The notes under the pieces: model-generated
The model's database searches: none
Seen by the model: only the letters and a program-made list of their open reading frames with translations
What the model was told of the DNA's origin: nothing
NCBI GenBank assembly: GCA_007121755.1
Contig: SKJZ01000039.1
Coordinates: 1 to 60,290 of the forward strand
DNA from: Halorhodospira sp.
Lineage (GTDB): Bacteria; Pseudomonadota; Gammaproteobacteria; Nitrococcales; Halorhodospiraceae
Reading direction: 5' to 3'
Length of the DNA stretch: 60,290 nt
Shown: positions 200-56,235 of the stretch, one piece after another
Layout of the letters: every line of letters starts with the position of its first letter
How positions within the stretch are numbered: the stretch's first letter is position 1
Program-made: the position numbers and the translations under genes

Positions 200-2701
200 T
201 CAGGCCGCCGGGCTGCTCCAAGGCCACGGTTGCGGGCGGTCCAGATGGAACCCCTGGCCGTAGTCTACGCCCATCCGGCAAAGGCTCTCCCGCACCTGTT
301 CGTTCTCGACGAACTCCGCTACCGTGTGGATGCGCATCACTTGGCCGACCCGCTGAATCGCCTGGACCATGGCGTGGTGGACCTCGTCGGCGTCCATGTC
401 GCGGACGAAACTGCCGTCGATCTTGAGGTAGTCCACCGGCAGTTCGCGGAGATAACCGAAAGACGACATCCCCGTGCCGAAGTCGTCCAGCGCCGTGCGG
501 CAACCCAATCGCCGGGCGTTGAGAAGCAACTCGCGGGTCTGCTCCAGGTCCGAAACGGCGCTGGTCTCGGTGATCTCGAGACAGATACACGACGGTGGAA
601 TGTGGTACTTTTCGAAGCATCGCCGGACGAAGGGGAGGAACTCCGGATCGTTCAGGGAATTCCCGGAAATGTTGATGCTGGTTACGGAGTCGCGTCGCGC
701 GGGTTCCGCCCGGAGCATTCTGGCGATGCCGTCAAAGACGGTCTCCACCACCCACCGATCGACCGCCGGCATGATGTTGTAGCGTTCGCCGGCCGGAATA
801 AAGAGGCCCGGTGAGACTTGGTTGCCCTCATGGTCACGCAGCCGCAAAAGGATCTCGCCGTGCGGACCGCCGCCGCTGCCGTTGAGGGAGTGGATCGGCT
901 GATAGTAAAGCTCGAACCGCTCTTCCTCCAAGGCTTGCGGTAGAATACTGGCCCACTCCAATTCGGCGTGGCGCCGTTCAAAGGTGCTACTAGCGGCGTC
1001 GTAGACCTGTATGCGGTTCCGCCCACGGTCCTTGGCCTCGTAGCAGGCGTGGTCCGCCGCCTGTAACAGCGAGGACATGTCGTCCGCTCCGGGGGTGATC
1101 GGGGCTACGCCGATACTGGCCCCAATGGAGAAAGTGCGGGCGCCCCACTGAAAGCGGAATGTGCGGATGCGGTCGATGAGTGACTGCGCTACCTCGAGCG
1201 CGTGGTCCATGTCGTCGTTCCGGATCAGGAGGCCGAACTCGTCGCCACCGAGGCGGGCCAGTAAATCACCCTCCTGCAGATCGCGAGAGAGCCACGCGGA
1301 GAGCTCGCGGAGCAGTTCGTCCCCAGCCGAATGGCCGCAGGTGTCATTGACCAGTTTAAACTGGTCAAGATCGACATAGAGCAATGTGTGCCGGGAGCCG
1401 TCCGGGTCCGTGGGCTCCTTGAGCAGGGTGGCCATTCGCCGTTCGAACTCGCGCCGGTTGCACAGACCGGTCAACGGGTCGCGTGCCGCCTGCCAGGCGA
1501 GTTCCGCCTCGCGCTCCTTGTCGCGGGTGATATCACGGATGATAGCGGTGTAGCGTTGTCGGCCGCCGAACTGGAAGTCGCTCACGGCGATGTAGGCGGG
1601 GAATGTTTTTCCGGCGCGGCTGCGCGCTTCGATCTCCGCGCCACCGTCGTGTCCGGCGGCGTGGAGGCGTTCCATCAGTGTTGCGGCGTCCTCGTCCCGA
1701 TCCAGGTCAGCGAACAGCATGGTCGCCGGCTGGTGGAGGATTTCCTTGGTGTGGTAACCGAACAGGTCCACCGCCGCGCGGTTGAAGGTCTCGATAAGAC
1801 CGGCCTCATCCGTTGTGATAATGCCGTCGACGGTGGTGTTGAGCATGACCCGGGCCCACTCCTCGTGTTCCCGGATAACCTCCCTGGCTCGATGGCGCTC
1901 CCCGATATCGGTAAAGACCGCGAGGTAGTAGATGGGTTGATCGTGCTCGTCGAGGGCGGCGTTGATGGTCAGCCACTGGGGGTAGACGTTGCCGTCCTTG
2001 CGGCGATTCCAAACCTCGCCCTGCCAATGGTGCTCACTCTTCAGGGCCTGCCGCATCGACTGGTGAAAATCCGGTGCATGCAGGCCGGATGAGAGGATGG
2101 ACGGCGTCTTGCCGATCACCTCGTGCGGCGCGTAGCCGGTGATGCGGGTGAATGCCGGATTGACGCGCAGGATCACATCGTTCGGGTCCGTGAGCATAAG
2201 GCCTTCGTGCATATGCTCGAAGGCCGTCTCTGCCAGCGCCAATTGCTCTTGTTGGAAGTGGCGGGCGGTGACGTCGCGCAGAACGGCGATGAGATGCCGC
2301 TGCTCAGCCGCGTCGTCGCTGTGGACCCGGATCATCCATTCGCCACGGAAGGTGGTGCCGATGGAGGTGCGATGAATGAGTTCGCCCGACCAGGCGCCAT
2401 GGGATTCCAGCGCTTTGCGGATGGCCGCCGCATTGGCGCCCTCGCCCTCCATGAAGGGCGCCCGCGTACCAATCGCGGCCTCCGGGGCGTGTCCGGTGAG
2501 CCGGCCGTACGCGGAGTTGGCGTACTCAATGGTGGGGCTGTTCTCCCCGTCGAGGTCGATGCCGGTGATTAGAATCGCGTCGCGGCTGTGCTCCAGCGCG
2601 GCCCGAAAAAGCCCGCAGTCCTGTAAAGAGGGAGTTGCCGAGTGTGTGGAATCGGGATCAGACATCAGAATGCAAAGCCACGGCCCCAAGGTGGTTGCCA
2701 T
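200..2701 (-). CDS. c-di-GMP signalling protein: three PAS-like domains + GGDEF diguanylate cyclase + EAL phosphodiesterase
   Basis: 833-aa ORF. PAS-like segments (IEYANSAYGRLTG, RVNPAFTRITGY, ETFNRAAVDLFGY). Intact GGDEF (RLGGDEFGLL). EAL-domain motifs (GEILLRLR, LEITE, DDFGTG, KIDGSFV, YGQGF). Confidence 0.9.
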   Translation of the reverse strand: MATTLGPWLCILMSDPDSTHSATPSLQDCGLFRAALEHSRDAILITGIDLDGENSPTIEYANSAYGRLTGHAPEAAIGTRAPFMEGEGANAAAIRKALESHGAWSGELIHRTSIGTTFRGEWMIRVHSDDAAEQRHLIAVLRDVTARHFQQEQLALAETAFEHMHEGLMLTDPNDVILRVNPAFTRITGYAPHEVIGKTPSILSSGLHAPDFHQSMRQALKSEHHWQGEVWNRRKDGNVYPQWLTINAALDEHDQPIYYLAVFTDIGERHRAREVIREHEEWARVMLNTTVDGIITTDEAGLIETFNRAAVDLFGYHTKEILHQPATMLFADLDRDEDAATLMERLHAAGHDGGAEIEARSRAGKTFPAYIAVSDFQFGGRQRYTAIIRDITRDKEREAELAWQAARDPLTGLCNRREFERRMATLLKEPTDPDGSRHTLLYVDLDQFKLVNDTCGHSAGDELLRELSAWLSRDLQEGDLLARLGGDEFGLLIRNDDMDHALEVAQSLIDRIRTFRFQWGARTFSIGASIGVAPITPGADDMSSLLQAADHACYEAKDRGRNRIQVYDAASSTFERRHAELEWASILPQALEEERFELYYQPIHSLNGSGGGPHGEILLRLRDHEGNQVSPGLFIPAGERYNIMPAVDRWVVETVFDGIARMLRAEPARRDSVTSINISGNSLNDPEFLPFVRRCFEKYHIPPSCICLEITETSAVSDLEQTRELLLNARRLGCRTALDDFGTGMSSFGYLRELPVDYLKIDGSFVRDMDADEVHHAMVQAIQRVGQVMRIHTVAEFVENEQVRESLCRMGVDYGQGFHLDRPQPWPWSSPAA

Positions 2702-24191: not shown

Positions 24192-24271
24192 GCGAGCGGC
24201 GGGAGACGGGTTCGGTTCGATGGATGCGGGAAGATTCCGGTCCGGGGCGTAGAACGGCCCTGGCAGCGGGA

Positions 24272-24319
24272 ACATGCCTTCCAGTGGGGCGCGGTAAGGT
24301 GCCCCACTGGAAGGCATGT
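24272..24319 (+). terminator. Perfect 19-bp stem-loop downstream of flaG
   Basis: ACATGCCTTCCAGTGGGGC-N10-GCCCCACTGGAAGGCATGT followed by TTTATT. The right arm overlaps the -24 element of the fliD sigma54 promoter. Confidence 0.6.
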
Positions 24320-24327
24320 TTATTGCA
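24312..24327 (+). promoter_or_regulatory. Sigma54 promoter for fliD
   Basis: AGGCAT-GTTTA-TTGCA with exact GG-N10-GC spacing. Confidence 0.55.
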
Positions 24328-24369
24328 TATACTAGCTTTGCGGCAATACTTATCGCAAAGCTAGTATAT
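24327..24369. repeat. AT-rich perfect 16-bp inverted repeat (operator or 5'-UTR hairpin) at the fliD transcription start region
   Basis: ATATACTAGCTTTGCG-N11-CGCAAAGCTAGTATAT, beginning at the last base of the -12 element. Confidence 0.6.
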
Positions 24370-26856: not shown

Positions 26857-28257
26857 GTGGTCCAAGTATTGGTCGTCGATGGGGACGCCGAGCGGCGGAC
26901 CGGCATTGAAGCGGTGTTGCAGTACCTGGAGCACCCGGTGGTCCACGCCGAGGGGGCGGGGGCCGGCGAGGTAGCCGAGCGTACCGGGGGGCTCGCGCTG
27001 GCCTTGGTCACTGCCGACGGCAGCGAAGAAGCGCCCGTCCGCTCCTTGGCCGAGGCGGCCCCCGACCTTCCCATCTTCCTGTTGACGCCACAAGGCTGGC
27101 CCACGCCGGCGCCGAAGGATTTCGGCGCCGAATTGTTGGGCGTTCTCGATCTACCGCTCCGCCACAATCAATTCACCGCCGCCCTACGTCAGGCGCTGAG
27201 CCACAATGCGCGCAGCCGTGAGCACGGGAGGCGCCCCCACGCCCAGCGCTTGGTCGGCGAGAGCCGCCCGATACAGCGCGTCCTGGATCTGATCGAGCAG
27301 GTGGCCGAGACCGATGCCAGCGTACTCATACTGGGGGAATCGGGGACCGGCAAGGAAGTCGTGGCGCGTAGTATTCATGCCCGCTCGTCTCGCCGCACGC
27401 GTCCTTTCGTGCCGATCAACTGCGGGGCGATTCCGTCGGAGTTGTTGGAGAGTGAATTGTTCGGCCATGAGAAGGGCGCCTTCACCGGGGCTATCTCGGC
27501 ACGGCAGGGCCGCTTCGAGTTGGCTCAGTCCGGTTCTATCTTCCTCGACGAGATCGGTGACATGAGTATGCATATGCAGGTCAAACTGCTGCGCGTGCTC
27601 CAGGAGCGCACCTTCGAGCGTGTCGGTAGTAACAAGTCGCTTGAGGCCGATGTGCGGGTGATCGCGGCCACCCATCGGAATCTCGATGCCGGTATCCGGG
27701 AAGGCACCTTCCGGGAGGACCTCTTTTACCGGCTCAACGTCTTCCCGATCGAGGTGCCGCCACTACGTGAGCGCCCCGGTGACATCCCCGTATTGATTGA
27801 GGAGATCATCCGGCGTATCGAAGAGGAGGGGCGGGGCTCGGTGCGCGTCAGCCCCGCGGCTATGTCGTGTCTTTCGGCGTACTCTTGGCCCGGCAACGTG
27901 CGGGAGCTGGCCAATGTGGTGGAGCGGGTGGCGATCATGTGTCCCTACGGGGAAGTGCAGGTGGAGAATCTGCCTAAGAAGATCCGCGAGGCGGCGCGCG
28001 GGGGGGATGACCCGGCGCTGTCGGACCGGATCGCCCCGGCGTCGGCCAATGGCGAGGAGGGGCCGTCGCTGCCGAACGTCGATTGGGGTGATGGCGGCAT
28101 CGACTTGAAGGAGCATCTTACCGGCGTGGAGCAGGCGTTGATCCGGCAGGCGCTCGGCGCTACCGATGGGGTCGTCGGCCGCGCGGCCCGCCTCCTCGGC
28201 CTGCGGCGGACCACTCTGGTCGAGAAGCTGCGCCGTTACGAAATCGAACGCCCCTGA
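26857..28257 (+). CDS. fleQ: Master flagellar sigma54-dependent activator FleQ/FlrA
   Basis: FleQ-type non-phosphorylatable N-terminal domain. AAA+ sigma54-interaction domain ([55 protein letters not shown]). C-terminal HTH. Confidence 0.9.
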   Translation: MVQVLVVDGDAERRTGIEAVLQYLEHPVVHAEGAGAGEVAERTGGLALALVTADGSEEAPVRSLAEAAPDLPIFLLTPQGWPTPAPKDFGAELLGVLDLPLRHNQFTAALRQALSHNARSREHGRRPHAQRLVGESRPIQRVLDLIEQVAETDASVLILGESGTGKEVVARSIHARSSRRTRPFVPINCGAIPSELLESELFGHEKGAFTGAISARQGRFELAQSGSIFLDEIGDMSMHMQVKLLRVLQERTFERVGSNKSLEADVRVIAATHRNLDAGIREGTFREDLFYRLNVFPIEVPPLRERPGDIPVLIEEIIRRIEEEGRGSVRVSPAAMSCLSAYSWPGNVRELANVVERVAIMCPYGEVQVENLPKKIREAARGGDDPALSDRIAPASANGEEGPSLPNVDWGDGGIDLKEHLTGVEQALIRQALGATDGVVGRAARLLGLRRTTLVEKLRRYEIERP

Positions 28258-28406
28258 CGGCACGACGTTGCCGGTCACCGGCAATGTCGTGCCGTCTTTG
28301 CCAGCCGACGGAATCTTGACTGCCGATGGTTGCCGGAGCGCCGGAAGTCCGGCGCCGCCGCGTATCTCAGTGACGTAGCGCCCCGCCGTTCTTGGGCGTC
28401 TCCCGC

Positions 28407-29923: not shown

Positions 29924-30238
29924 GTGAGCAATTTCCGTATCGAGCAAGCCCTCGCCGAGATGCGTTCGCTTTCCGGCCGACCGAATGAGGTCGCGCCGGC
30001 GGGTAATCAGCCCGGCGTAGACGAGTTCTCCGAACTCCTCCAGCAGGCTGTGACGCATGTCAATGAACGGCAGGTGGAGGCGAACGAACTCAGTAACGCC
30101 TATATGCGCGGCGAGGAAGTGAAACTGACGGATGTGATGATCTCGTCCCAGAAGGCGCAGATCTCTTTCGAAGCCATGAAGGAAGTGCGTAACCGGCTGT
30201 TGGAGGCTTACCAAGAGATCTCCAACATGCAGGTCTAA
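29924..30238 (+). CDS. fliE: Flagellar hook-basal body protein FliE
   Basis: 104 aa with C-terminus VMISSQKAQISFEAMKEVRNRLLEAYQEISNMQV. GTG start. Confidence 0.9.
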   Translation: MSNFRIEQALAEMRSLSGRPNEVAPAGNQPGVDEFSELLQQAVTHVNERQVEANELSNAYMRGEEVKLTDVMISSQKAQISFEAMKEVRNRLLEAYQEISNMQV

Positions 30239-44731: not shown

Positions 44732-44864
44732 CGCCCCAAGGCGGCAATACCTTTCCGCCTTGGGCGGCAAGAGACGGCTCCAACCGGCAACTGTATGCCG
44801 GGTGCCGGAGCCGGAAGCCGTTTGCCGCGGAACGGCAAGAGTTGAACATTAATGGAAGTTAGCT

Positions 44865-45134: not shown

Positions 45135-45917
45135 ATGGAGCTCACCACCGCCGAGATCGCCGGCTGGGTCGGCGCCTTTATGTACCCCCTCATGCGGGTT
45201 GGGGCGGCCGTCGTGGTAGCTCCGGTATTCGGCAACAACATGATTCCGGTGCGGGTTCGCGTCTTTGTCGGCCTCGGGTTGACGGTGGCGGTAATGCCCG
45301 CAGTCGGGCCGATTCCGGCCGCCGATCCGCTGTCCGCCCAAGGGCTGATGATTGCCGGTCAGGAGATACTCGTCGGCCTCACCATCGGCTTCGTGTTCGC
45401 GCTGGCCTTGAACACGGTGGTGATTGCCGGGGAGAGCGTCGCTCTGGCCATGGGCCTGGGCTTTGCCACCATGGTCGATCCCCAGACCGGCATGTCTGTG
45501 CCGGTGATCTCTCAGGTACTGCTGGTGGTGGCCACCCTGCTCTTCCTCGGGTTTGGTGGGCACTTGGTCATGATCCAATTGCTGGCCGACAGCTTCACCG
45601 CCATCCCTGTGGGAGGCGCCGGGCTGGAGCGGGACGCCTTCTGGGATGTGATCTCCTGGGGGTCGCAGCTTTTCGCCGGGGCGGTGTTGATCGCGTTGCC
45701 GGTGGTGACGGTCCTGCTGGTGATCAACTTGGCCCTGGGCGTGATGACGCGGGCGGCGCCGCAGATGAACGTCTTCTCCGTCGGCCTGCCGGTGACCTTG
45801 TTAGTGGGGATGTTGCTGATCCCCGTAATGCTGCTGCCCGCGCTACCGAATCGGATGGCGAGCATTTGGCAGCACGCCTACGACACCCTTGGAGTGATTC
45901 TCGGGGTATCGGGATGA
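45135..45917 (+). CDS. fliR: Flagellar export apparatus protein FliR
   Basis: 260-aa polytopic membrane protein directly after fliQ, with a FliR-like pattern (FMYPLMRVGAAVVVAPVFG). Confidence 0.92.
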   Translation: MELTTAEIAGWVGAFMYPLMRVGAAVVVAPVFGNNMIPVRVRVFVGLGLTVAVMPAVGPIPAADPLSAQGLMIAGQEILVGLTIGFVFALALNTVVIAGESVALAMGLGFATMVDPQTGMSVPVISQVLLVVATLLFLGFGGHLVMIQLLADSFTAIPVGGAGLERDAFWDVISWGSQLFAGAVLIALPVVTVLLVINLALGVMTRAAPQMNVFSVGLPVTLLVGMLLIPVMLLPALPNRMASIWQHAYDTLGVILGVSG

Positions 45918-45933
45918 ACGCGCCGGTCGCTTT

Positions 45934-46071
45934 ACGAACCTTTCGGCAGGCCTTACCAGGGGGCGCCCATAGGGGGTCTCGGCCGCAGGGATGCGGCCGT
46001 GAAGCCTCCAGGGATGGATTCACGGCGTCCCCGTATGGGCGCCCCCTGGTAAGGCCTGCCGAAAGGTTCGT
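45934..46071. repeat. 138-nt element with perfect 38-bp terminal inverted repeats enclosing two GGGA-capped hairpins (MITE-like or structured RNA)
   Basis: Left arm 45934-45971 is the exact reverse complement of right arm 46034-46071. Inner hairpins are CGGCCGCA-GGGA-TGCGGCCG (45980-45999) and TCCA-GGGA-TGGA (46007-46018). Confidence 0.85.
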
Positions 46072-46118
46072 GGCTTGGTCGTTGTCCGGCGGTCGGGTGC
46101 GGGGAGGGCGCGCGCGCT

Positions 46119-47288
46119 ATGGCTGAAGAGAACGAGAGCGGCCAGGAGAAAACCGAAGAACCGACCCCGAAACGCCGCGAAGACAGCAAAAAGAAAGGTC
46201 AGATTCCCCGCTCCCGGGAGCTGACCACCATGCTCCTCATGCTGGCGGCGGCATTGGCCCTGCTGGTCCTGGGCGGCTGGATGGGGTCGCAATTGCAGGC
46301 ACTGTTGGAGTGGTCGTTCACGATAGACCGGAGCCACATCTTCGAAAGGGATGTGGTGGTCAGATCCCTCCACGAGGCGATCGGCCGCGGGTTGATTACG
46401 GTCGGGCCTTTCGCCATGGCCATGCTGGTGGTGGCGTTGGCGGCGCCGGTCGTTCTCGGGGGGTGGTCGTTTTCAGCGCGGCCTATGGCTCCAAAGCTGG
46501 AAAAGATTAGCCCTATCAAGGGGTTCAAGCGGATGTTTGGGACCAAGGCCCTGGTTGAGCTGGGCAAGGCCCTGGGTAAGGTGTTGGTTGTGGGCGGTAC
46601 GGCGCTAGGGCTGTTCTACCTCTTTTTCGACAGCTTCTACGCGATGAGCCGGACGTCTCTGCTACCCGCGATGGCGGAGGGCATGCGGCTGTTCTACATC
46701 TTCTTCTTCCTGTTGGCGCTGTCGCTGCTGGTAGTCGTGGCCATTGACGTGCCGTACCAAATCTACGACCACACCCAGAAGATCCGCATGACCCGCCAGG
46801 AGGTGAAGGACGAGTTTAAACAGACTGAGGGTAAGCCCGAAGTCAAGAGCCGAATACGCGACTTGCAGCGGGAGATGTCCAACCAACGCATGATGGAGCA
46901 GGTGCCCAAGGCCGACGTGGTCGTCACCAACCCGGCTCACTTCGCGGTGGCGTTGCGCTACGATCAGTCCGCAATGCGCGCCCCGCGGGTCATCGCCAAG
47001 GGCACCGATTTGTTGGCGGGCCGGATTCGCGCCGTCGCCGAGGAAAACGGTATTCCGCTCTTTCAGGCGCCGCCATTGGCACGGGCCTTGTATTACTCCA
47101 CGGAGTTGGAGCAGGAGATCCCCTCCGAGCTCTATTTCGCGGTGGCTCAGGTACTGGCCTACGTCTACCAGTTGCGGGCTGCCCGCCGCCGCGGCGCTAG
47201 GCCGCCGGACCAGCCGCGGCCGGAAGTGCCCGAGGGGATGGATCAGCGCCCGGAGCGTGGTGGTAGCCAAGGAGATCAGAACGGCTGA
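46119..47288 (+). CDS. flhB: Flagellar export switch protein FlhB
   Basis: N-terminus EKTEEPTPKRREDSKKKGQIPRSRE. Autocleavage-site motif VVTNPAHFAVAL. Confidence 0.95.
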   Translation: MAEENESGQEKTEEPTPKRREDSKKKGQIPRSRELTTMLLMLAAALALLVLGGWMGSQLQALLEWSFTIDRSHIFERDVVVRSLHEAIGRGLITVGPFAMAMLVVALAAPVVLGGWSFSARPMAPKLEKISPIKGFKRMFGTKALVELGKALGKVLVVGGTALGLFYLFFDSFYAMSRTSLLPAMAEGMRLFYIFFFLLALSLLVVVAIDVPYQIYDHTQKIRMTRQEVKDEFKQTEGKPEVKSRIRDLQREMSNQRMMEQVPKADVVVTNPAHFAVALRYDQSAMRAPRVIAKGTDLLAGRIRAVAEENGIPLFQAPPLARALYYSTELEQEIPSELYFAVAQVLAYVYQLRAARRRGARPPDQPRPEVPEGMDQRPERGGSQGDQNG

Positions 47289-49453
47289 TGAACGCGGTCA
47301 TTGCGGAACAGCTCAGGTTGATCGGCTCGCGGGGGCTCGGCACTCCGCTGCTGGTGGTGGCGTTGCTGGCCATGATGGTTGTGCCGCTACCGCCCCTGGG
47401 GCTGGACATGTTGTTCACCTTCAACATCGTCCTCTCGCTATCCATCCTGCTGGTCACCGTGTACATCATGCGGCCGCTCGAGTTCGCGGTCTTCCCGACC
47501 ATCCTGCTGGTGGCGACGCTGTTGCGGCTGGCGCTCAACGTCGCTTCCACGCGGGTGATCCTCCTGGACGGGCATACCGGTACGGACGCGGCGGGCAACG
47601 TCATTCAGTCCTTCGGCGAGTTCGTCGTCGGCGCCAACTACGTTGTCGGTTTTGTCGTCTTCGCCATCCTGGTCATCATCAACTTTGTCGTGGTCACCAA
47701 GGGCGCGGGCCGTATCTCGGAGGTCACTGCCCGGTTTACGCTCGACGCTCTGCCGGGCAAGCAGATGGCTATCGACGCCGACCTGAACGCCGGTCTGATC
47801 TCTCAAGACGATGCGCGCACCCGCCGGTCGGAGGTGGCCAAGGAGGCGGACTTCTACGGCTCAATGGATGGCGCCGCCAAGTTCGTCCGCGGCGATGCCA
47901 TCGCCGGCATCCTGATCCTCCTGATCAATATCGTCGGCGGGCTGATCATCGGCCTGGCTCAGCACGGCATGCCGGTGGACGAGGCGGCGCGCAACTACAC
48001 GCTGTTGACGATCGGCGACGGTTTGGTAGCGCAGATTCCGTCGCTGGTGCTCTCCAGCGCAACCGCCATTTTGGTGACGCGGGTCTCCGATTCACAGGAG
48101 ATGACCGATGAGGTCGTCCAGCAACTCTTCGGTAACCCGAGGGTGCTGTGGGTGGTGGGCGCGGTCATTGCGCTGTTGGGACTGGTTCCCGGCATGCCGG
48201 CGGCGCCCTTTCTCTTCTTCGCCGTGTTGTGCGGCCTGGGTGCTTGGATGGCGACCCGAAAACAGACGGAGCGGCATGCCGCCGAGGAGGCGGCTGCCGA
48301 GCCGGCCGTCTCGCACGACGAGGATGCCGAACGCAAGGAGCTCACCTGGAATGACGTTCCGCCGGTCGATCCGGTGGGGCTTGAGGTCGGTTACGGCTTG
48401 ATCCCGCTGGTCGATCGCGACCAGGGCGGGCAGTTGTTGAACCGGATCAAGGGCGTACGCAAGAAAATCTCCCAGGATCTCGGCTTTCTGATTCAGCCGG
48501 TACATATCCGTGACAACCTCGATCTGGGGCCCAATTCGTACCGTATCAGTATCTTCGGCGTGCCGGTGGCCGAGGCGGAGGTGCAGCCGGGGCGGGAGTT
48601 GGCGATCAACCCCGGCACGGTCCACGGCGAGTTGGGCGGCGTGGCGACGCAGGATCCCGCCTTCGGTTTGGAGGCTGTCTGGATCGAGCCGGCCCAGCAC
48701 GACTACGCCCAGGCATTGGGGTATACCGTGGTGGACGCCAGCACGGTTATCGCCACCCACCTCTCCCAGCTGGTTCAGCAGCACGCCAAGCAACTCTTCG
48801 GCCACGAGGAGGCGCAGAAGCTCCTCGATATGCTCGCGGAGAGCCAGCCGAAGCTGGTAGAGGAGTTGGTCCCGAACACGCTGCCGCTATCCGTTCTGGT
48901 CAAGGTCATGCAGAACCTGTTGGACGAAGGCGTTCCCATCCGCGATATACGCACCATCCTTGAGACACTGGCCGAGCATGGACAAAAGACGAAGGATCCG
49001 GCGGTACTGACTCAACACGTTCGCGAGGGGCTCGCCCGCATGATTATCCAGAGCATCCACGGAATGAACCAGGAGCTCCCGGTGATTACCCTTGAGCCCC
49101 AGTTGGAACAAATATTGCTTAACACTGTTCAAGGTGCCGGCGAGGGCGGGGGCGGCGGCTTTGAACCGGGACTGGCGGAGCGCATGCAGCAGTCGCTGGC
49201 GGAAGCCGTTCAGCGCCAGGAGGCCGAGGGGCAGCCGGCAGTGTTGTTAACGTCGCCGCCGCTGCGGGTTTGGTTACGCCGCCTGACCCGCAATGCCGCG
49301 CCGGGGCTGTACGTACTTTCATACAACGAGGTGCCCGATGACCGGCAAGTGCGCATTGTCGCGACAGTCGGCCAAGGGCAGGGCCAGGGGCAGGGCGGCG
49401 GCGGGTTGGAGGGCGGCCGGCCGCGTCCGGAGAAAACCGGAGCCGGGGCATGA
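47288..49453 (+). CDS. flhA: Flagellar export gate protein FlhA
   Basis: Conserved TM domain and GAGRISEVTARFTLDALPGKQMAIDADLNAG. Large cytoplasmic domain. Unusual GQGQGQGQGGGG tail. Confidence 0.95.
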   Translation: MNAVIAEQLRLIGSRGLGTPLLVVALLAMMVVPLPPLGLDMLFTFNIVLSLSILLVTVYIMRPLEFAVFPTILLVATLLRLALNVASTRVILLDGHTGTDAAGNVIQSFGEFVVGANYVVGFVVFAILVIINFVVVTKGAGRISEVTARFTLDALPGKQMAIDADLNAGLISQDDARTRRSEVAKEADFYGSMDGAAKFVRGDAIAGILILLINIVGGLIIGLAQHGMPVDEAARNYTLLTIGDGLVAQIPSLVLSSATAILVTRVSDSQEMTDEVVQQLFGNPRVLWVVGAVIALLGLVPGMPAAPFLFFAVLCGLGAWMATRKQTERHAAEEAAAEPAVSHDEDAERKELTWNDVPPVDPVGLEVGYGLIPLVDRDQGGQLLNRIKGVRKKISQDLGFLIQPVHIRDNLDLGPNSYRISIFGVPVAEAEVQPGRELAINPGTVHGELGGVATQDPAFGLEAVWIEPAQHDYAQALGYTVVDASTVIATHLSQLVQQHAKQLFGHEEAQKLLDMLAESQPKLVEELVPNTLPLSVLVKVMQNLLDEGVPIRDIRTILETLAEHGQKTKDPAVLTQHVREGLARMIIQSIHGMNQELPVITLEPQLEQILLNTVQGAGEGGGGGFEPGLAERMQQSLAEAVQRQEAEGQPAVLLTSPPLRVWLRRLTRNAAPGLYVLSYNEVPDDRQVRIVATVGQGQGQGQGGGGLEGGRPRPEKTGAGA

Positions 49454-54030: not shown

Positions 54031-56235
54031 ATGGCCATCGACCTTGAGGACGATATCGTTCAGGACTTTCTGGTCGAGTCCCGGGAGATCCTGGAGCGCC
54101 TCAGTGAGCAGTTGGTCGACCTGGAGCAGCGGCCTACTGATAAAGACCTGTTGAACTCGGTCTTCCGGGGGTTCCATACCATCAAGGGTGGCGCCGGGTT
54201 TCTCGGCATGGATCCATTGGTGGATGTCTGTCATCGGACCGAGGATGTCTTCAACCTGCTCCGGAACGGAGAGAAAGAGGTCACCGCGGACCTCATGGAT
54301 ATTGTGCTGCGGGCGCTGGATGTCGTTGTCGCGCAGTTCGGTAATATCGAAAGCGGCGAGGATCCGCAAGCGGCCCCGCCGGAGTTGCTGCGTGAATTGG
54401 AGACGCACAACGTCGCCGATGGCGCGCCTGCGGCCGAACATCAACCTGCTGCAGCCCCGCCGGCGGCAGCCGGCGCGGACAGTGAGGATCCGGGGGATAT
54501 CAGCGACGCCGAGTTCGAAGAGCTGCTCGATGCGTTGGATGAGGATGGCGGCGGCGGCGCGCCAGCGGAGGCCGCCAGCGACGAGATTACCGATGACGAG
54601 TTCGAAGGGTTGCTGGATGAACTCCACGGCAACGGGCAGCACGCCGGCGTGCCTCCGGGCGTCTCGGCGAGCGCCGGTCCGCCGGAGAAGGCGGCGGCCG
54701 GCAGCGATGACGAGATAGAAGAGGAAGAGTTCGAGGCGCTGCTCGACGATATGTACGGTAAGGGGGCGGCGCCCGGTAAGCACGCCGCGCCGCCAGCCGT
54801 GGAAGCGACCGGTGCTACGCCTGCCGCCGCCAAGGCGCCGGCGGCAGAGGGCGGGCAGGCTCGCGCGGCGAAGGCCCCGTCCGAGCCTGCGGCCAAGTCC
54901 GATCCGCCGCGGGCGGCGGTGTCGCAATCCTCATCTTTGGCGCCTGCCAAGGGTGGTGGTGGGGGCGGCGGTAAAGAGCCGCCGGCCTCCAAGGGGGGCG
55001 GCGCCGCGGGAGCTGGCGGCGGTGGCGGGGCTCCGAAGGTCGAGTCCTCGGTCCGGGTCGATACCTCCAAATTGGACGAGATCATGAATTTGGTCGGTGA
55101 GCTGGTCTTGGTCCGTAACCGGCTCTCCACCCTGAGGGGGTTGTTGGACGACGACCGGATGAGCCAGGCGGTGGCCGATCTCGAGTTGGTGACGTCTGAC
55201 TTGCAGACATCGGTCATGAAGACCCGGATGCAGCCGATCAAGAAGGTCTTTGGCCGTTTTCCCCGTGTGATTCGCGACTTGGCCCGGCAGCTGGATAAAG
55301 AGGTGCGTCTGGAGACGCGGGGCGAGGATACCGATCTCGACAAGAACATGGTCGAGGCGCTTGCCGATCCGATGATCCACTTGGTACGCAATTCGGTCGA
55401 TCACGGCATCGAATCCCCGGATGAGCGGGAGAGCAAGGGAAAGCCGCGTGAGGGAGTGGTCACCCTGTCCGCTGAGCAGGAAGGGGACCATATCCTATTG
55501 ACGATCGCCGATGACGGCGCCGGGATGGATCCGCAAAAACTGCGTCGGTTGGCGGTGGAGAAAGGGGTGATGGACCAGGAGTCGGCCGCCCGTCTCGACG
55601 ACAAGGAGGCCTTCAATCTGATCTTCTACGCCGGCTTCTCCAGCAAGGAGGAGATTTCCGACGTCTCGGGGCGGGGTGTCGGCATGGATGTGGTGAAGAA
55701 CAGCTTGGCCAAGCTCAACGGTACCGTGGATATCGACTCGGAAATGGGTGTCGGTACGGTCATGAAGATCCAGTTGCCGTTGACCCTGGCCATCCTGCCG
55801 ACCCTGATGGTGAAGATCTCTGGCCGTAAGTTTGCGCTGCCGATGTCGGTGGTTCGGGAGATCTTCGAACTGAATCAGACACGTACCAACGTGGTTAACA
55901 ACCGCCTGGTGGTCTTGGTCCGCAACAAGGCCATGCCGCTCTTCTTCCTCGAACGTTGGCTCCATCAGTCGGGCGAGCCCATGCCGAGTAACCAGCAGGA
56001 CGCCGAGACCGAAGGCGAGGATGAGCGCCAAGTGGTGACTGTCATTATCGGCAATCAGGCGGTGGGTTTTGTCGTCGATGAAGTGATTGGGCTGGAGGAG
56101 GTAGTGATTAAGCCGCTCGGTGCGCTCCTTCACGGGTTGCCGGGGCTGGCCGGATCGACCATCACCGGTGACGGCCAGATCGCGCTGATTGTCGATATAC
56201 CGAGCCTGATCAAGTCGTTCGGTGCGCGCCTCTGA
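54031..56235 (+). CDS. cheA: Chemotaxis histidine kinase CheA
   Basis: Hpt domain (FRGFHTIKGGAGFLG). Dimerisation domain. HATPase boxes (HLVRNSVDHGIE, DDGAGMD, GRGVGMDVV). C-terminal CheW-like domain. Confidence 0.95.
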   Translation: MAIDLEDDIVQDFLVESREILERLSEQLVDLEQRPTDKDLLNSVFRGFHTIKGGAGFLGMDPLVDVCHRTEDVFNLLRNGEKEVTADLMDIVLRALDVVVAQFGNIESGEDPQAAPPELLRELETHNVADGAPAAEHQPAAAPPAAAGADSEDPGDISDAEFEELLDALDEDGGGGAPAEAASDEITDDEFEGLLDELHGNGQHAGVPPGVSASAGPPEKAAAGSDDEIEEEEFEALLDDMYGKGAAPGKHAAPPAVEATGATPAAAKAPAAEGGQARAAKAPSEPAAKSDPPRAAVSQSSSLAPAKGGGGGGGKEPPASKGGGAAGAGGGGGAPKVESSVRVDTSKLDEIMNLVGELVLVRNRLSTLRGLLDDDRMSQAVADLELVTSDLQTSVMKTRMQPIKKVFGRFPRVIRDLARQLDKEVRLETRGEDTDLDKNMVEALADPMIHLVRNSVDHGIESPDERESKGKPREGVVTLSAEQEGDHILLTIADDGAGMDPQKLRRLAVEKGVMDQESAARLDDKEAFNLIFYAGFSSKEEISDVSGRGVGMDVVKNSLAKLNGTVDIDSEMGVGTVMKIQLPLTLAILPTLMVKISGRKFALPMSVVREIFELNQTRTNVVNNRLVVLVRNKAMPLFFLERWLHQSGEPMPSNQQDAETEGEDERQVVTVIIGNQAVGFVVDEVIGLEEVVIKPLGALLHGLPGLAGSTITGDGQIALIVDIPSLIKSFGARL

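What the first reader, a model, noticed from the sequence alone, without database searches (positions are those of the whole stretch)
45934..46071. 138-nt element with perfect 38-bp terminal inverted repeats and two GGGA-capped hairpins between fliR and flhB
fliR and flhB are normally tightly linked, but here they are separated by 201 bp.

- Positions 45934-45971 (ACGAACCTTTCGGCAGGCCTTACCAGGGGGCGCCCATA) are the exact reverse complement of 46034-46071.
- The 62-nt core folds into two sub-hairpins, each closed by a GGGA (GNRA-type) tetraloop: CGGCCGCA-GGGA-TGCGGCCG, and TGAA..TCCA-GGGA-TGGA..TTCA.
- Both hairpins carry the direct repeat CAGGGATG.
- No T-tract follows, so it is not a classical terminator.
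- The element lies in sense orientation inside the presumed fliL-to-flhB transcript.

A perfect 38-bp RNA duplex would be an ideal RNase III substrate, which could uncouple flhB/flhA mRNA from the upstream genes. Alternatively it is a MITE-like or REP-like mobile repeat, although I see no clear target-site duplication.
Basis: seen in the sequence. Interest (0 to 1): 0.7.

Follow-up and report, generated by a model that had tools for sequence, protein, structure and literature searches.

The report
YPAL-type palindromic insertion between fliR and flhB
The 138-nt hairpin between two flagellar export genes is a real, recent insertion of a small palindromic repeat related to the known Yersinia "YPAL/RU-2" elements, so it is not a conserved flagellar control signal, although its conserved tip carries two hairpins that look like binding sites for the regulator CsrA.

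Summary
Window 45934-46071 has 43-nt inverted arms (38 perfect, then one G.G mismatch) around a 52-nt core with two GGGA-capped hairpins. It folds far better than shuffles (-124.7 kcal/mol, z -12.6) and has no T-tract.

It is a lineage-specific insertion. At least three other assemblies of the same species (99.6-99.97% identical) carry its left or right part with identical sequence. The nearest relative (FlhB 89%) has a 57-nt fliR-flhB spacer without it, and cultured Halorhodospira have 3 nt.

The core belongs to the YPAL/RU-2 repeat family of Yersinia (Rfam Ysr224). A covariance model built only from enterobacterial plasmid copies finds the window element as the sole significant hit in 60 kb (57.6 bits, E about 1e-11). 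Across the family the long stem differs in every copy but stays paired, while the core is conserved.

No second copy and no clear target-site duplication were found here, and the rest of the genome could not be searched.

Both core hairpins fit CANGGANG, the CsrA/Rsm motif, in nearly all members. That link is untested.

The RNase III idea is plausible but untested. This is a new member of a known kind, of moderate interest.

The parts
45135..45917 (+). fliR (260 aa); its stop codon lies 16 nt before the element
   Evidence: Pfam Bac_export_1, E 5e-64. The same protein is found in MAG contig SLRU01000018.
45918..45933 (+). Left remnant of the ancestral fliR-flhB spacer. It ends in GCTT (45929-45932) followed by T. 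A strain SNP lies at 45926 (G in the window, A in the MAG).
45934..45976 (+). Left arm of the long stem. Positions 45934-45971 are perfectly complementary to 46034-46071. Position 45972 is the G.G mismatch. Positions 45973-45976 (GGGG) pair with 46029-46032.
45977..46028 (+). Conserved 52-nt core shared with YPAL/RU-2-type elements. Order: TCTC tag (CGTC or CCTC in relatives), hairpin 1, spacer GTGAAGCC, hairpin 2, then TTCACGGCGTC (the final CGTC is 46026-46029).
   Evidence: Covariance model R1, built without the window, matches 45960-46045 end to end at 57.6 bits, E 1.3e-11. Alignment A3. BLAST hit to the Enterobacter plasmid copy.
45980..45999 (+). Core hairpin 1: stem CGGCCGCA/TGCGGCCG with loop GGGA. 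CAGGGATG (45986-45993) fits CANGGANG as a C-G-closed AGGGAU hexaloop.
   Evidence: The stem covaries across the family while the C-G closing pair never varies.
46007..46018 (+). Core hairpin 2: stem TCCA/TGGA with loop GGGA. CAGGGATG (46009-46016) fits CANGGANG, 23 nt after the first motif.
   Evidence: Compensatory changes TCCA/TGGA, TACA/TGTA and GCCA/TGGC occur across members, with an invariant C-G closing pair.
46029..46071 (+). Right arm of the long stem, the reverse complement of the left arm.
   Evidence: Identical in L001 and L030.
46072..46118 (+). Right remnant of the ancestral spacer. It starts with G then GCTT (46073-46076) and holds the flhB Shine-Dalgarno GGGGAGGG (46101-46108). 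It is collinear with the relative's spacer and its GGGAG.
46119..47288 (+). flhB (389 aa). Its stop overlaps the flhA start at 47288.
   Evidence: Pfam Bac_export_2, E 3e-128; FHIPEP for 47288-49453.

Best explanation
**What it is**
- Window 45934-46071 is one copy of a palindromic miniature insertion element of the YPAL/RU-2 superfamily. This is the family that Rfam lists in part as Yersinia sRNA Ysr224.
- It entered the roughly 57-63-nt fliR-flhB spacer of a Halorhodospira-related bacterium after that lineage split from its nearest sampled relative. This is shown.
- Like its relatives, it has a conserved ~52-nt core of two small hairpins at the tip of a long stem. The stem sequence is specific to each copy but always complementary. 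This is shown.

**How it most likely works (inferred)**
- The neighbouring genes are co-directional and are separated by only 3-57 nt in relatives. No promoter or terminator signal is present. The element is therefore most likely transcribed as part of the fliM...fliR-flhB-flhA message.
- There it would fold into a ~43-bp RNA duplex capped by the two hairpins.
- By analogy with YPAL, ERIC and Correia elements, it would alter mRNA fate at the fliR|flhB junction. It could block 3'-to-5' exonucleases and stabilise the upstream segment, or serve as an RNase III cleavage site separating the two halves.
- It is most likely a tolerated selfish insertion with a side effect on expression, not an evolved flagellar control element.
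For: **Structure**
- The structure is real and far beyond chance.

**Lineage-specific insertion**
- At least three other assemblies of the same species, 99.6-99.97% identical, carry its left or right part with identical sequence.
- The closest relative (FlhB 89% identical, about 83% DNA identity) has a 57-nt spacer without the element in three assemblies. H. halochloris and H. abdelmalekii have 3 nt.
- With the element removed, the window's 63-nt spacer is collinear with the relative's 57 nt.

**Family membership**
- BLAST links the core to an Enterobacter plasmid copy. That copy links to Yersinia copies identical to the published 168-nt RU-2/YPAL sequence, which score 133.9 bits on Rfam Ysr224 (PMC2759123).
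- Model R1, trained only on 5 enterobacterial copies, finds the window element at 57.6 bits, E 1.3e-11, full length. It is the only significant hit in 60 kb.
- On the family alignment 93.9% of cells pair, against 35-45% when the partners are slid out of register. 21 of 29 pairs show changes on both sides.

**Published properties that also hold here (PMC2229807)**
- YPAL is not A+T-rich; the window element is 67% G+C.
- YPAL has internal inverted repeats, shows filled and empty sites between related genomes, and is reported as read through with upstream genes and possibly affecting upstream transcript stability.
- The element starts 16 nt after the fliR stop. My recollection of De Gregorio 2006 is that YPALs tend to lie just downstream of stop codons.
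- A shorter 130-136-nt YPAL variant exists in Y. pestis (PMC2267715).

**Signals**
- No terminator or sigma-70 promoter signal is present.
Against: - No second copy was found in the window, in about 5 kb beyond it, or in relatives' loci.
- The arm 20-mers have no true match in 185,579 reference genomes, 241 million metagenome records or viral contigs.
- No called protein anywhere contains a translation of the element.
- There is no convincing target-site duplication. The only candidate is GCTT on both sides, offset by 1 nt, which is not significant.
- The Yersinia and E. coli-plasmid copies are flanked by 14-21-nt duplicated terminator-like hairpins. The window copy is not.
- The window scores only 16.9 bits on Rfam Ysr224, whose threshold is 70.
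- It lacks the outer ~50-nt segments of the 168-nt YPAL.
- Its arms are nearly perfect, unlike the imperfect Yersinia stems.
- Transcription, folding in vivo and any effect on mRNA are all inferred.
Confidence: 0.75

Rival explanations
1. Mobile CsrA/Rsm-binding module. The conserved core is kept because its RNA displays two C-G-closed ANGGAN hexaloops (CANGGANG) 23 nt apart, an ideal site for one CsrA dimer. Wherever it inserts in the sense orientation it recruits or titrates CsrA. Here that would tie the fliR-flhB junction of a flagellar export operon to the Csr system.
For: - CANGGANG is the Rsm/CsrA motif (PMC6849547).
- Two GGA hexaloop hairpins 18-21 nt apart form a high-affinity dimer site, and the C. 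jejuni flaA leader titrates CsrA this way (PMC4894983).
- In the window both hairpins read CAGGGATG on the sense strand of the operon.
- Across six distinct members 11 of 12 hairpins fit the motif.
- The C-G closing pairs never vary, while the rest of the stems covary.
- Pantoea copies at two further loci, not used to form the idea, fit in 5 of 6 hairpins.
- The model strand, which carries GGA, folds better than its complement in 6 of 6 members.
Against: - A single CANGGANG is at chance frequency in the window, 43 against 45 expected.
- Wobble pairs give no strand signal, 3 G.T against 3 A.C.
- Rfam's Ysr224 RNA is defined on the opposite strand.
- Most copies examined lie between convergent genes, so their transcribed strand is unknown.
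- The sites are about 90-110 nt from the flhB ribosome-binding site, so classical translational repression is unlikely.
- No csrA lies in the window, and its presence in this genome was not checked.
- The same invariant bases could be a transposase recognition site on single-stranded DNA.
- No paper in the held library links CsrA and YPAL.
Confidence: 0.22
2. Dedicated regulatory hairpin. The stem evolved, or is maintained, as an RNase III processing site that uncouples flhB/flhA mRNA from fliL-R.
For: - A 38-43-bp near-perfect duplex is predicted inside a probable operon transcript.
- RNase III cleaves the comparable hairpins of Neisseria Correia/NEMIS elements (cited in PMC2229807).
Against: - The element is absent from the closest relative and from cultured Halorhodospira, so it is not a conserved feature of this junction.
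- It belongs to a mobile repeat family found in unrelated contexts.
- Cleavage was not tested.
Confidence: 0.12
3. Classical TIR-defined MITE. It would be a deletion derivative of an insertion sequence, mobilised in trans by a transposase that recognises the 38-bp terminal repeats, with many identical copies elsewhere in the genome.
For: - It has long terminal inverted repeats, is small, and shows a filled-versus-empty site.
- Three of four assemblies break inside it, which can happen at repeats.
Against: - The arms match nothing in reference genomes, metagenomes, viral contigs, plasmids or phages.
- There is no clear target-site duplication.
- In the family the arms differ between copies, even between two copies 130 nt apart on one plasmid, while the core is conserved. 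This is the reverse of a TIR-defined MITE.
- The contigs break in the core and not at the element's edges, which fits trouble with a long palindrome as well as it fits a repeat.
Confidence: 0.1
4. Intrinsic terminator or attenuator separating a fliL-R operon from an flhBA operon.
For: It is a very stable G+C-rich hairpin just after a stop codon.
Against: - No T-tract follows the stem, and the scan finds no terminator there.
- No promoter-like site lies between it and flhB.
- Relatives have 3-57-nt spacers with no room for such signals.
Confidence: 0.04
5. Assembly artefact: a fold-back chimera.
For: - It is a long, near-perfect palindrome in metagenome-derived sequence.
- Several assemblies break there.
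Against: - Independent assemblies reproduce each half, with unique flanks on both sides.
- The core is homologous to a family known from isolate genomes.
Confidence: 0.02

Closest known systems
YPAL / RU-2 (Yersinia palindromic sequences; De Gregorio et al. 2006; Delihas 2007); Rfam RF02770 Ysr224 covers part of it
   Same: - Homologous ~52-nt core: a CGTC-type tag, hairpin 1 with an RGGA loop, hairpin 2 with an NGGA loop, then ...CGTC.
- The core sits at the tip of a long internal inverted repeat.
- Not A+T-rich.
- Lies just after a stop codon.
- Filled and empty sites occur between related genomes.
- A 130-136-nt short variant exists.
- Sources.
   Different: - 138 nt instead of 168 nt, lacking the outer CAGACTGCTGACAA.../...TTGTCAATAACCT segments.
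- The arms are unrelated in sequence and nearly perfect (38/38, then 4 more).
- No duplicated hairpin or other clear target-site duplication.
- Only one copy seen.
- The host is a Halorhodospira relative, far outside Enterobacterales.
- Below the Rfam threshold, 16.9 against 70 bits.
Correia / NEMIS elements of Neisseria
   Same: - A 100-155-bp palindromic insertion co-transcribed with neighbouring genes.
- Its long hairpin is an RNase III substrate that changes mRNA levels (as cited in PMC2229807).
   Different: - No sequence similarity.
- Correia elements have conserved 24-26-bp terminal repeats, TA duplications and often an IHF site.
- Here the arms are copy-specific and the core is the conserved part.
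ERIC / IRU (RU-1) elements
   Same: - An imperfect palindrome of about 127 bp in intergenic regions of gamma-proteobacteria.
- It is co-transcribed and shown in Yersinia to alter the stability of flanking mRNA segments in an orientation-dependent way (PMC2229807).
   Different: - A different sequence family.
- A resemblance I recalled between the core and the ERIC1R primer region was not pursued and is not claimed.
REP/BIME and CGTC-tagged palindromic repeats (Di Nocera et al. 2013)
   Same: - Small G+C-rich hairpins with a short unpaired tag.
- CGTC, and the variants CCTC and TGTC, are named in that paper.
- Some dimers are embedded in longer palindromes, for example in Halothiobacillus neapolitanus.
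- No dedicated transposase is known for the CGTC type (PMC3733652).
   Different: - The published CGTC units have 8-9-bp stems that start with A-T pairs and end in CCA tails, which is not seen here.
- The consensus figures were not available, so no direct comparison was made.
CsrA/Rsm-binding RNAs (CsrB/RsmZ-type hairpins; C. jejuni flaA leader)
   Same: Two apical C-G-closed ANGGAN hexaloops (CANGGANG) about 20 nt apart (PMC4894983, PMC6849547).
   Different: - The sites are carried on a mobile palindromic element and do not overlap a ribosome-binding site.
- No Rfam Csr/Rsm family matches.
- Binding is untested.

Membership tests
YPAL / RU-2 superfamily | Sequence and structure homology to known members | tested here: met
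   - Model R1, built from 5 enterobacterial copies without the window, gives 57.6 bits, E 1.3e-11, over the full model length. It is the sole significant hit in 60 kb.
- The BLAST chain runs window -> Enterobacter (E 0.03) -> Yersinia (E 6e-9).
YPAL / RU-2 superfamily | Length of about 167-168 bp with the characteristic outer segments | tested here: not met
   The element is 138 nt, and the outer YPAL segments are absent.
YPAL / RU-2 superfamily | Internal inverted repeats folding into a long stable stem-loop; not A+T-rich | tested here: met
   The stem is 43 bp, the fold is -124.7 kcal/mol, and the element is 67% G+C. The description is in PMC2229807.
YPAL / RU-2 superfamily | Target-site duplication of 3-26 bp, with targets at or next to dyad symmetry | tested here: inconclusive
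   - The only candidate is GCTT at 45929-45932 and 46073-46076, each 1 nt from the repeat ends.
- Removing the element plus one GCTT copy gives a 57-nt spacer, the same length as the relative's, but the gapless identity is only 23/57.
YPAL / RU-2 superfamily | Many dispersed copies in the host genome | not testable with these tools
   Only about 65 kb of this genome could be read, and it holds one copy. The genome and metagenome scans used arm 20-mers, which would miss copies with other arms.
YPAL / RU-2 superfamily | Filled and empty sites between related genomes | tested here: met
   The site is filled in the window and in at least three other assemblies of the same species. It is empty in the closest relative (three assemblies) and in two Halorhodospira species.
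Rfam RF02770 Ysr224 | Score at or above the gathering threshold (70 bits) | tested here: not met
   - The window scores 16.9 bits, E 0.72, on the minus strand.
- Yersinia copies score 133.9 bits and the Enterobacter copy 39.5 bits.
Classical TIR-defined MITE | Terminal inverted repeats shared among copies and with a parent insertion sequence | tested here: not met
   - The arms have no true match in any collection searched.
- Within the family the arms differ from copy to copy.
Intrinsic (Rho-independent) terminator | G+C-rich hairpin followed directly by a T-tract | tested here: not met
   The stem is followed by GGCTTGGTCGTTG, and the scan finds no terminator-like site there.
RNase III substrate | Uninterrupted double-stranded RNA of about two helical turns or more (established knowledge); cleavage in vivo | not testable with these tools
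   A perfect 38-bp duplex is predicted. Cleavage needs end-mapping in wild type against an rnc mutant.
CsrA/Rsm binding site | GGA in an apical hexaloop closed by C-G (CANGGANG), ideally two sites about 18-21 nt apart | tested here: met
   - Met by sequence and predicted structure only.
- The motifs are at 45986-45993 and 46009-46016, 23 nt apart.
- The motif definitions come from PMC6849547 and PMC4894983.
- Protein binding was not tested.
CGTC-tagged REP (Di Nocera 2013) | Stem of 8-9 bp starting with A-T pairs, 4-5-nt loop, terminal CGTC tag and CCA tail | tested here: inconclusive
   A CGTC-type tag (TCTC here; CGTC or CCTC in relatives) precedes an 8-bp stem with a 4-nt loop. The A-T-first stem and the CCA tail are not seen. 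The consensus figures were not held.

The most novel reading that the evidence does not exclude
YPAL-superfamily elements may be mobile CsrA/Rsm-binding modules.
- The part conserved from Yersinia to a Halorhodospira relative is a pair of C-G-closed ANGGAN hexaloop hairpins, spaced for one CsrA dimer and held at the tip of a copy-specific long stem.
- Each sense-oriented insertion would place a transcript under Csr control or add to a dispersed CsrA sponge.
- In this genome that would connect the fliR-flhB junction of a flagellar type III export operon to CsrA.
- It could also explain why YPAL-bearing transcripts accumulate in Yersinia.
Probability: 0.2. Interest if true: 0.75.

Novelty: new member of a known kind. 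Interest (0 to 1): 0.38.

Why it matters
**For this locus**
- The long fliR-flhB gap is an accident of insertion, not a flagellar control design.
- Genome annotators should mask it as a repeat.
- It also breaks short-read assemblies: three of four assemblies of this species end inside it.

**More broadly**
- The YPAL/RU-2 family, described only in Yersinia and Pectobacterium and listed in Rfam as a Yersinia small RNA, extends further. It is present in Pantoea and Enterobacter, on conjugative plasmids of E. coli, Klebsiella and Citrobacter, and in a distant halophilic phototroph lineage.
- Its evolutionary pattern is the reverse of a normal MITE. The core is conserved while the arms are copy-specific but always paired.
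- That pattern points to an unknown way of spreading or being maintained.
- The core's match to the CsrA motif gives a cheap, direct experiment.

Tried and rejected
**Searches for other copies**
- Exact 20-mers of the arm returned only chance single-arm hits. These were in coding or AT-rich sequence of Verrucomicrobia and unrelated metagenomes.
- The viral contig scans were empty.
- The phage collection had no match.
- E. coli genomes had no match to the Enterobacter copy.
- A six-frame translation of the element against 5.8 billion proteins returned nothing.

**Rfam**
- The best Rfam hit, MIR820 at 48 bits against a threshold of 196, is a generic long-hairpin match and was dismissed.

**Leads that did not hold**
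- A weak CsrA-like tblastn hit at 30104-30220 is FliE.
- A target-site duplication could not be established from the diverged spacer of the relative.
- The idea that the core inserted into a pre-existing palindrome is rejected for this locus, because the relative's spacer holds no such palindrome.
- Inversion of the core between the arms was considered as the cause of the contig breaks. It was set aside because it would place the graph branch at the outer ends of the arms, not in the core.
- A sigma-54 promoter reading of TGGTAAGGCCTGCC in the right arm was rejected by eye because the GG-to-GC spacing is wrong.

**Not available or not pursued**
- The primary YPAL paper (PMC1636318) is not held.
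- The look-up did not return the 50-200-kb contig that should span the junction, so no second full-length copy of the element was read.
- The recalled resemblance to the ERIC1R primer region was not pursued.
Full report
**1.

fliR (45135-45917) and flhB (46119-47288) are identified by Pfam, and they are 201 bp apart. Positions 45934-45971 are the exact reverse complement of 46034-46071. No such match occurred in 100 shuffles.

The repeat finder extends the arms to 43 nt, 45934-45976 and 46029-46071, with a single G.G mismatch at 45972/46033. The arms enclose 52 nt.

The core holds two small hairpins:
- CGGCCGCA-GGGA-TGCGGCCG (45980-45999)
- TCCA-GGGA-TGGA (46007-46018)

The 8-mer CAGGGATG occurs in both, 23 nt apart.

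As RNA the region folds at -124.7 kcal/mol, against -69.6 +/- 4.4 for shuffles, z -12.6. No T-tract follows the stem, and no terminator-like or sigma-70-like site is found. A sensitive BLAST finds no other copy in the window, not even a partial one.

**2. It is real DNA, and it is an insertion**

The source is a Halorhodospira relative. Its FlhB is 77% identical to that of H. halochloris.

The same species appears in several assemblies that are 99.6-99.97% identical to the window:
- MAG contig SLRU01000018 carries the left arm and core.
- SLRU01000274 and ENA contig k141_804184 carry the core and right arm.
- All are identical to the window over the element. A flank SNP at 45926 shows they are separate strains.

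The nearest relative (FlhB 89% identical, about 83% DNA identity) was seen in three assemblies. It has a 57-nt fliR-flhB spacer with no element. H. halochloris and H. abdelmalekii have a 3-nt spacer.

With the 138 nt removed, the window's 63-nt spacer is collinear with the relative's 57 nt, including the flhB Shine-Dalgarno. The element therefore entered after the two lineages split.

**3. It is not a widespread TIR family**

- Exact 20-mers of the arm found only chance hits in 185,579 species-representative genomes and 241 million metagenome records.
- They found nothing in viral contigs.
- Phage records gave nothing.
- A six-frame translation of the element matched no called protein among 5.8 billion.

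**4. The core is the key**

A distant BLAST of the element against plasmids gave one marginal hit, E 0.03, covering only the core, on an Enterobacter chuandaensis plasmid. That site has the same architecture: 26-nt arms of unrelated sequence around a 52-nt core. Hairpin 1 there has a different stem but the same CAGGGATG, and it is followed by CTCCAGGGATGGATT-ACG-CGTC.

The Enterobacter copy in turn matches Yersinia plasmid copies at E 6e-9. Those copies are identical to the published 168-nt RU-2/YPAL sequence of Y. pestis CO92 (PMC2759123, Table 1b). They score 133.9 bits on Rfam Ysr224. The Enterobacter copy scores 39.5 bits and the window 16.9 bits. Ysr224 is therefore a piece of the YPAL repeat.

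Further members lie in these places:
- on conjugative plasmids of E. coli, Klebsiella and Citrobacter
- on Pantoea megaplasmids, at three loci

**5. Objective membership test**

I built a covariance model (R1) from five enterobacterial copies, leaving the window out. Across the whole 60-kb window, on both strands, its only significant hit is 45960-46045 on the + strand. The score is 57.6 bits, E 1.3e-11, with the model matched end to end. The next hit, at 12 bits, is an unrelated hairpin.

The model also found a second, previously unseen copy on the Enterobacter plasmid, and nothing in any relative's flagellar locus.

On the resulting alignment:
- 93.9% of cells pair, against 35-45% when the partners are slid by 1-3 columns.
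- 21 of 29 pairs show changes on both sides.
- These include pairs in the two short core hairpins: CGGCCGCA, CCGCGTCA and CCGCGCCA in hairpin 1, and TCCA, TACA and GCCA in hairpin 2.

The alignment was fitted to the model, so the counts lean towards the structure. The gap to the slid controls is nevertheless large.

**6. What kind of element this is**

Published descriptions of YPAL fit the window copy (PMC2229807):
- not A+T-rich
- inverted repeats internal
- variable target duplications of 3-26 bp at or near dyad symmetries
- filled and empty sites between related genomes
- described as read through with upstream genes, and possibly influencing upstream transcript stability

A survey lists about 100 copies in Y. 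pestis, plus a 130-136-nt short variant (PMC2267715).

The window copy differs in several ways:
- It lacks the outer YPAL segments.
- Its arms are nearly perfect.
- It shows no duplicated hairpin at its ends. The Yersinia and E. coli-plasmid copies are flanked by 14-21-nt duplicated terminator-like hairpins.
- The only candidate duplication is GCTT, offset by 1 nt on each side. This is not significant.

Across the family the arms differ in every copy, even between two Enterobacter copies 130 nt apart, while the core is conserved. This is the reverse of a TIR-defined MITE. It also means my arm-based scans of the large collections could not have found other family members. The core was searched only in viral contigs and plasmids. 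Copy number in this genome is unknown. About 65 kb of it holds one copy.

**7. How it most likely works**

*Shown.* It is a lineage-specific insertion of a YPAL-type element 16 nt after the fliR stop and 47 nt before the flhB start. It lies in a co-directional block fliM-N-O-P-Q-R / flhB-A-F within a Pseudomonas-type flagellar regulon that includes FleQ, a second sigma-54 activator and FliA.

*Inferred.* It is transcribed within the operon message. It folds independently of its flanks into a ~43-bp duplex capped by the two hairpins. It changes mRNA fate at the junction, either as a barrier to 3' exonucleases or as an RNase III site. The precedents are YPAL, ERIC and Correia elements.

I take it to be a tolerated selfish insertion with a possible side effect on the fliR:flhB expression ratio.

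**8. An unexpected feature**

The family's invariant bases are the loops and the C-G pair that closes each of them. Those pairs never vary in the nine distinct aligned sequences. Read as 8-mers, they are:

| Copy | Hairpin 1 | Hairpin 2 |
|---|---|---|
| Window | CAGGGATG | CAGGGATG |
| Enterobacter copy 1 | CAGGGATG | CAGGGATG |
| Yersinia | CAAGGATG | CATGGATG |
| E. coli plasmid | CAAGGATG | CACGGACG |
| Enterobacter copy 2 | CAGGGAAG | CATGGATG |

These all fit CANGGANG, the Rsm/CsrA motif (PMC6849547), presented as apical hexaloops about 20 nt apart. That is the high-affinity arrangement for a CsrA dimer, as in the C. jejuni flaA leader that titrates CsrA (PMC4894983).

Pantoea copies at two further loci, examined after the idea was formed, fit in 5 of 6 hairpins.

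Cautions:
- A single CANGGANG is at chance frequency in the window.
- Wobble pairs show no strand bias, 3 against 3.
- Rfam defines Ysr224 on the other strand.
- Most copies lie between convergent genes.
- The same bases could be a DNA-level recognition site.
- The held library has no paper linking CsrA and YPAL.

I rate this a 0.2 possibility. It is cheap to test.

**9. Assembly behaviour**

Coordinates marked "about" are computed from record coordinates.
- SLRU contig 18 ends at window position 46033.
- SLRU contig 274 and ENA k141_2527651 start at about 45980.
- k141_804184 starts at 45987.
- k141_3082736 ends at about 45992.
- Contig lengths indicate that one 65.5-kb contig should span the junction, but the look-up did not return it.

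The breaks lie in the core and not at the element's edges. They therefore fit trouble reading through a long palindrome at least as well as a multi-copy repeat, and I draw no conclusion on copy number from them.

**10. Verdict**

The RNase III idea is plausible but untested, and it is not a conserved feature of this junction. The element is a new, distant member of the known YPAL/RU-2 family.

Interest is moderate. It comes from three points: the family's reach beyond Enterobacterales, the pattern of a conserved core with copy-specific arms, and the CsrA-like hexaloops.

Noticed in passing
L015 1451-1619, L016 1451-1619, L017 1201-1363: YPAL copies are flanked by duplicated terminator-like hairpins. 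The duplicates are AAACCGCCTTTATGGCGGTTT in the Y. similis plasmid, GAGCCAGTAGGCTT in Y. pseudotuberculosis, and CAGGGGC-loop-GCCCCTG in the E. coli plasmid, where the two copies differ in the loop. The element seems to insert right after a terminator stem and duplicate it.
   Followed up: partly
Rfam RF02770 (Ysr224) on L015 and L016 1512-1618, minus strand: The Rfam family 'Yersinia sRNA 224' is simply 107 nt of the YPAL/RU-2 repeat, on the strand opposite to the published RU-2 sequence. This explains why it ranks among the most abundant 'sRNAs' in genome surveys (PMC9029176).
   Followed up: partly
L014 2258-2350 (minus strand) and 2480-2571 (plus strand), then 2578-2700: The Enterobacter plasmid carries two family copies in opposite orientation about 130 nt apart, with entirely different arms. 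They are followed by degenerate direct repeats of CCGCCGCTGACTCACT...CAGCCAGCCAAC. This lies in a 2.4-kb region with no listed gene.
   Followed up: no
Window about 45980-46033; contig ends in L001, L007, L030 and computed ends of ENA contigs: Three of four assemblies of this species end inside the element's core. Right-hand contigs start at 45980-45987, and left-hand contigs end at about 45992 or 46033. The cause is not established; it could be a palindrome read-through problem or variation in the population.
   Followed up: partly
Window 24271-24320 and 24327-24369: Two further perfect palindromes lie between the flagellin gene region and fliD (24396). The first has 20-nt arms with a 10-nt loop, followed by TTTATTG, and looks like a terminator. 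The second is A+T-rich: ATATACTAGCTTTGCG / CGCAAAGCTAGTATAT with an 11-nt loop, 27 nt upstream of fliD, and could be an operator or activator site.
   Followed up: no
Window 28256-28296: A 19-bp hairpin (GACGGCACGACGTTGCCGG...CCGGCAATGTCGTGCCGTC) starts at the stop codon of fleQ (26857-28257) and is followed by TCTTTGCC. It is probably the fleQ terminator. It was the only other, non-significant, hit of the family model.
   Followed up: no
Window 55602-55690: Three CANGGANG motifs (CAAGGAGG, CAAGGAGG, CATGGATG) lie about 40 nt apart on the sense strand inside cheA (54031-56235). This may be chance or a repeated peptide.
   Followed up: no
Window 44732-44864; L008 1260-1390; L011 1316-1406: The fliP-fliQ spacer is unusually long, 133 nt here, 131 nt in the closest relative and 91 nt in H. 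halochloris. Unlike the fliR-flhB gap, it is conserved across the lineage. It was not examined further.
   Followed up: no
L015 1142-1425, minus strand: A full-length ryfA RNA (Rfam RF00126, 179.5 bits) lies immediately next to the YPAL copy on the Y. similis conjugative plasmid.
   Followed up: no
Window right arm 46054-46068 against L014 2264-2277: The outer part of the window's arm (CTGCCGAAAGGTTCG) resembles the inner arm of the second Enterobacter copy (CCGCCGAAAGGTCCG). Both Enterobacter copies have a TGTA/GAAA internal loop next to the closing stem, with GTAG on the left side. This may be a vestige of shared arm ancestry or of a REP-like tag.
   Followed up: no
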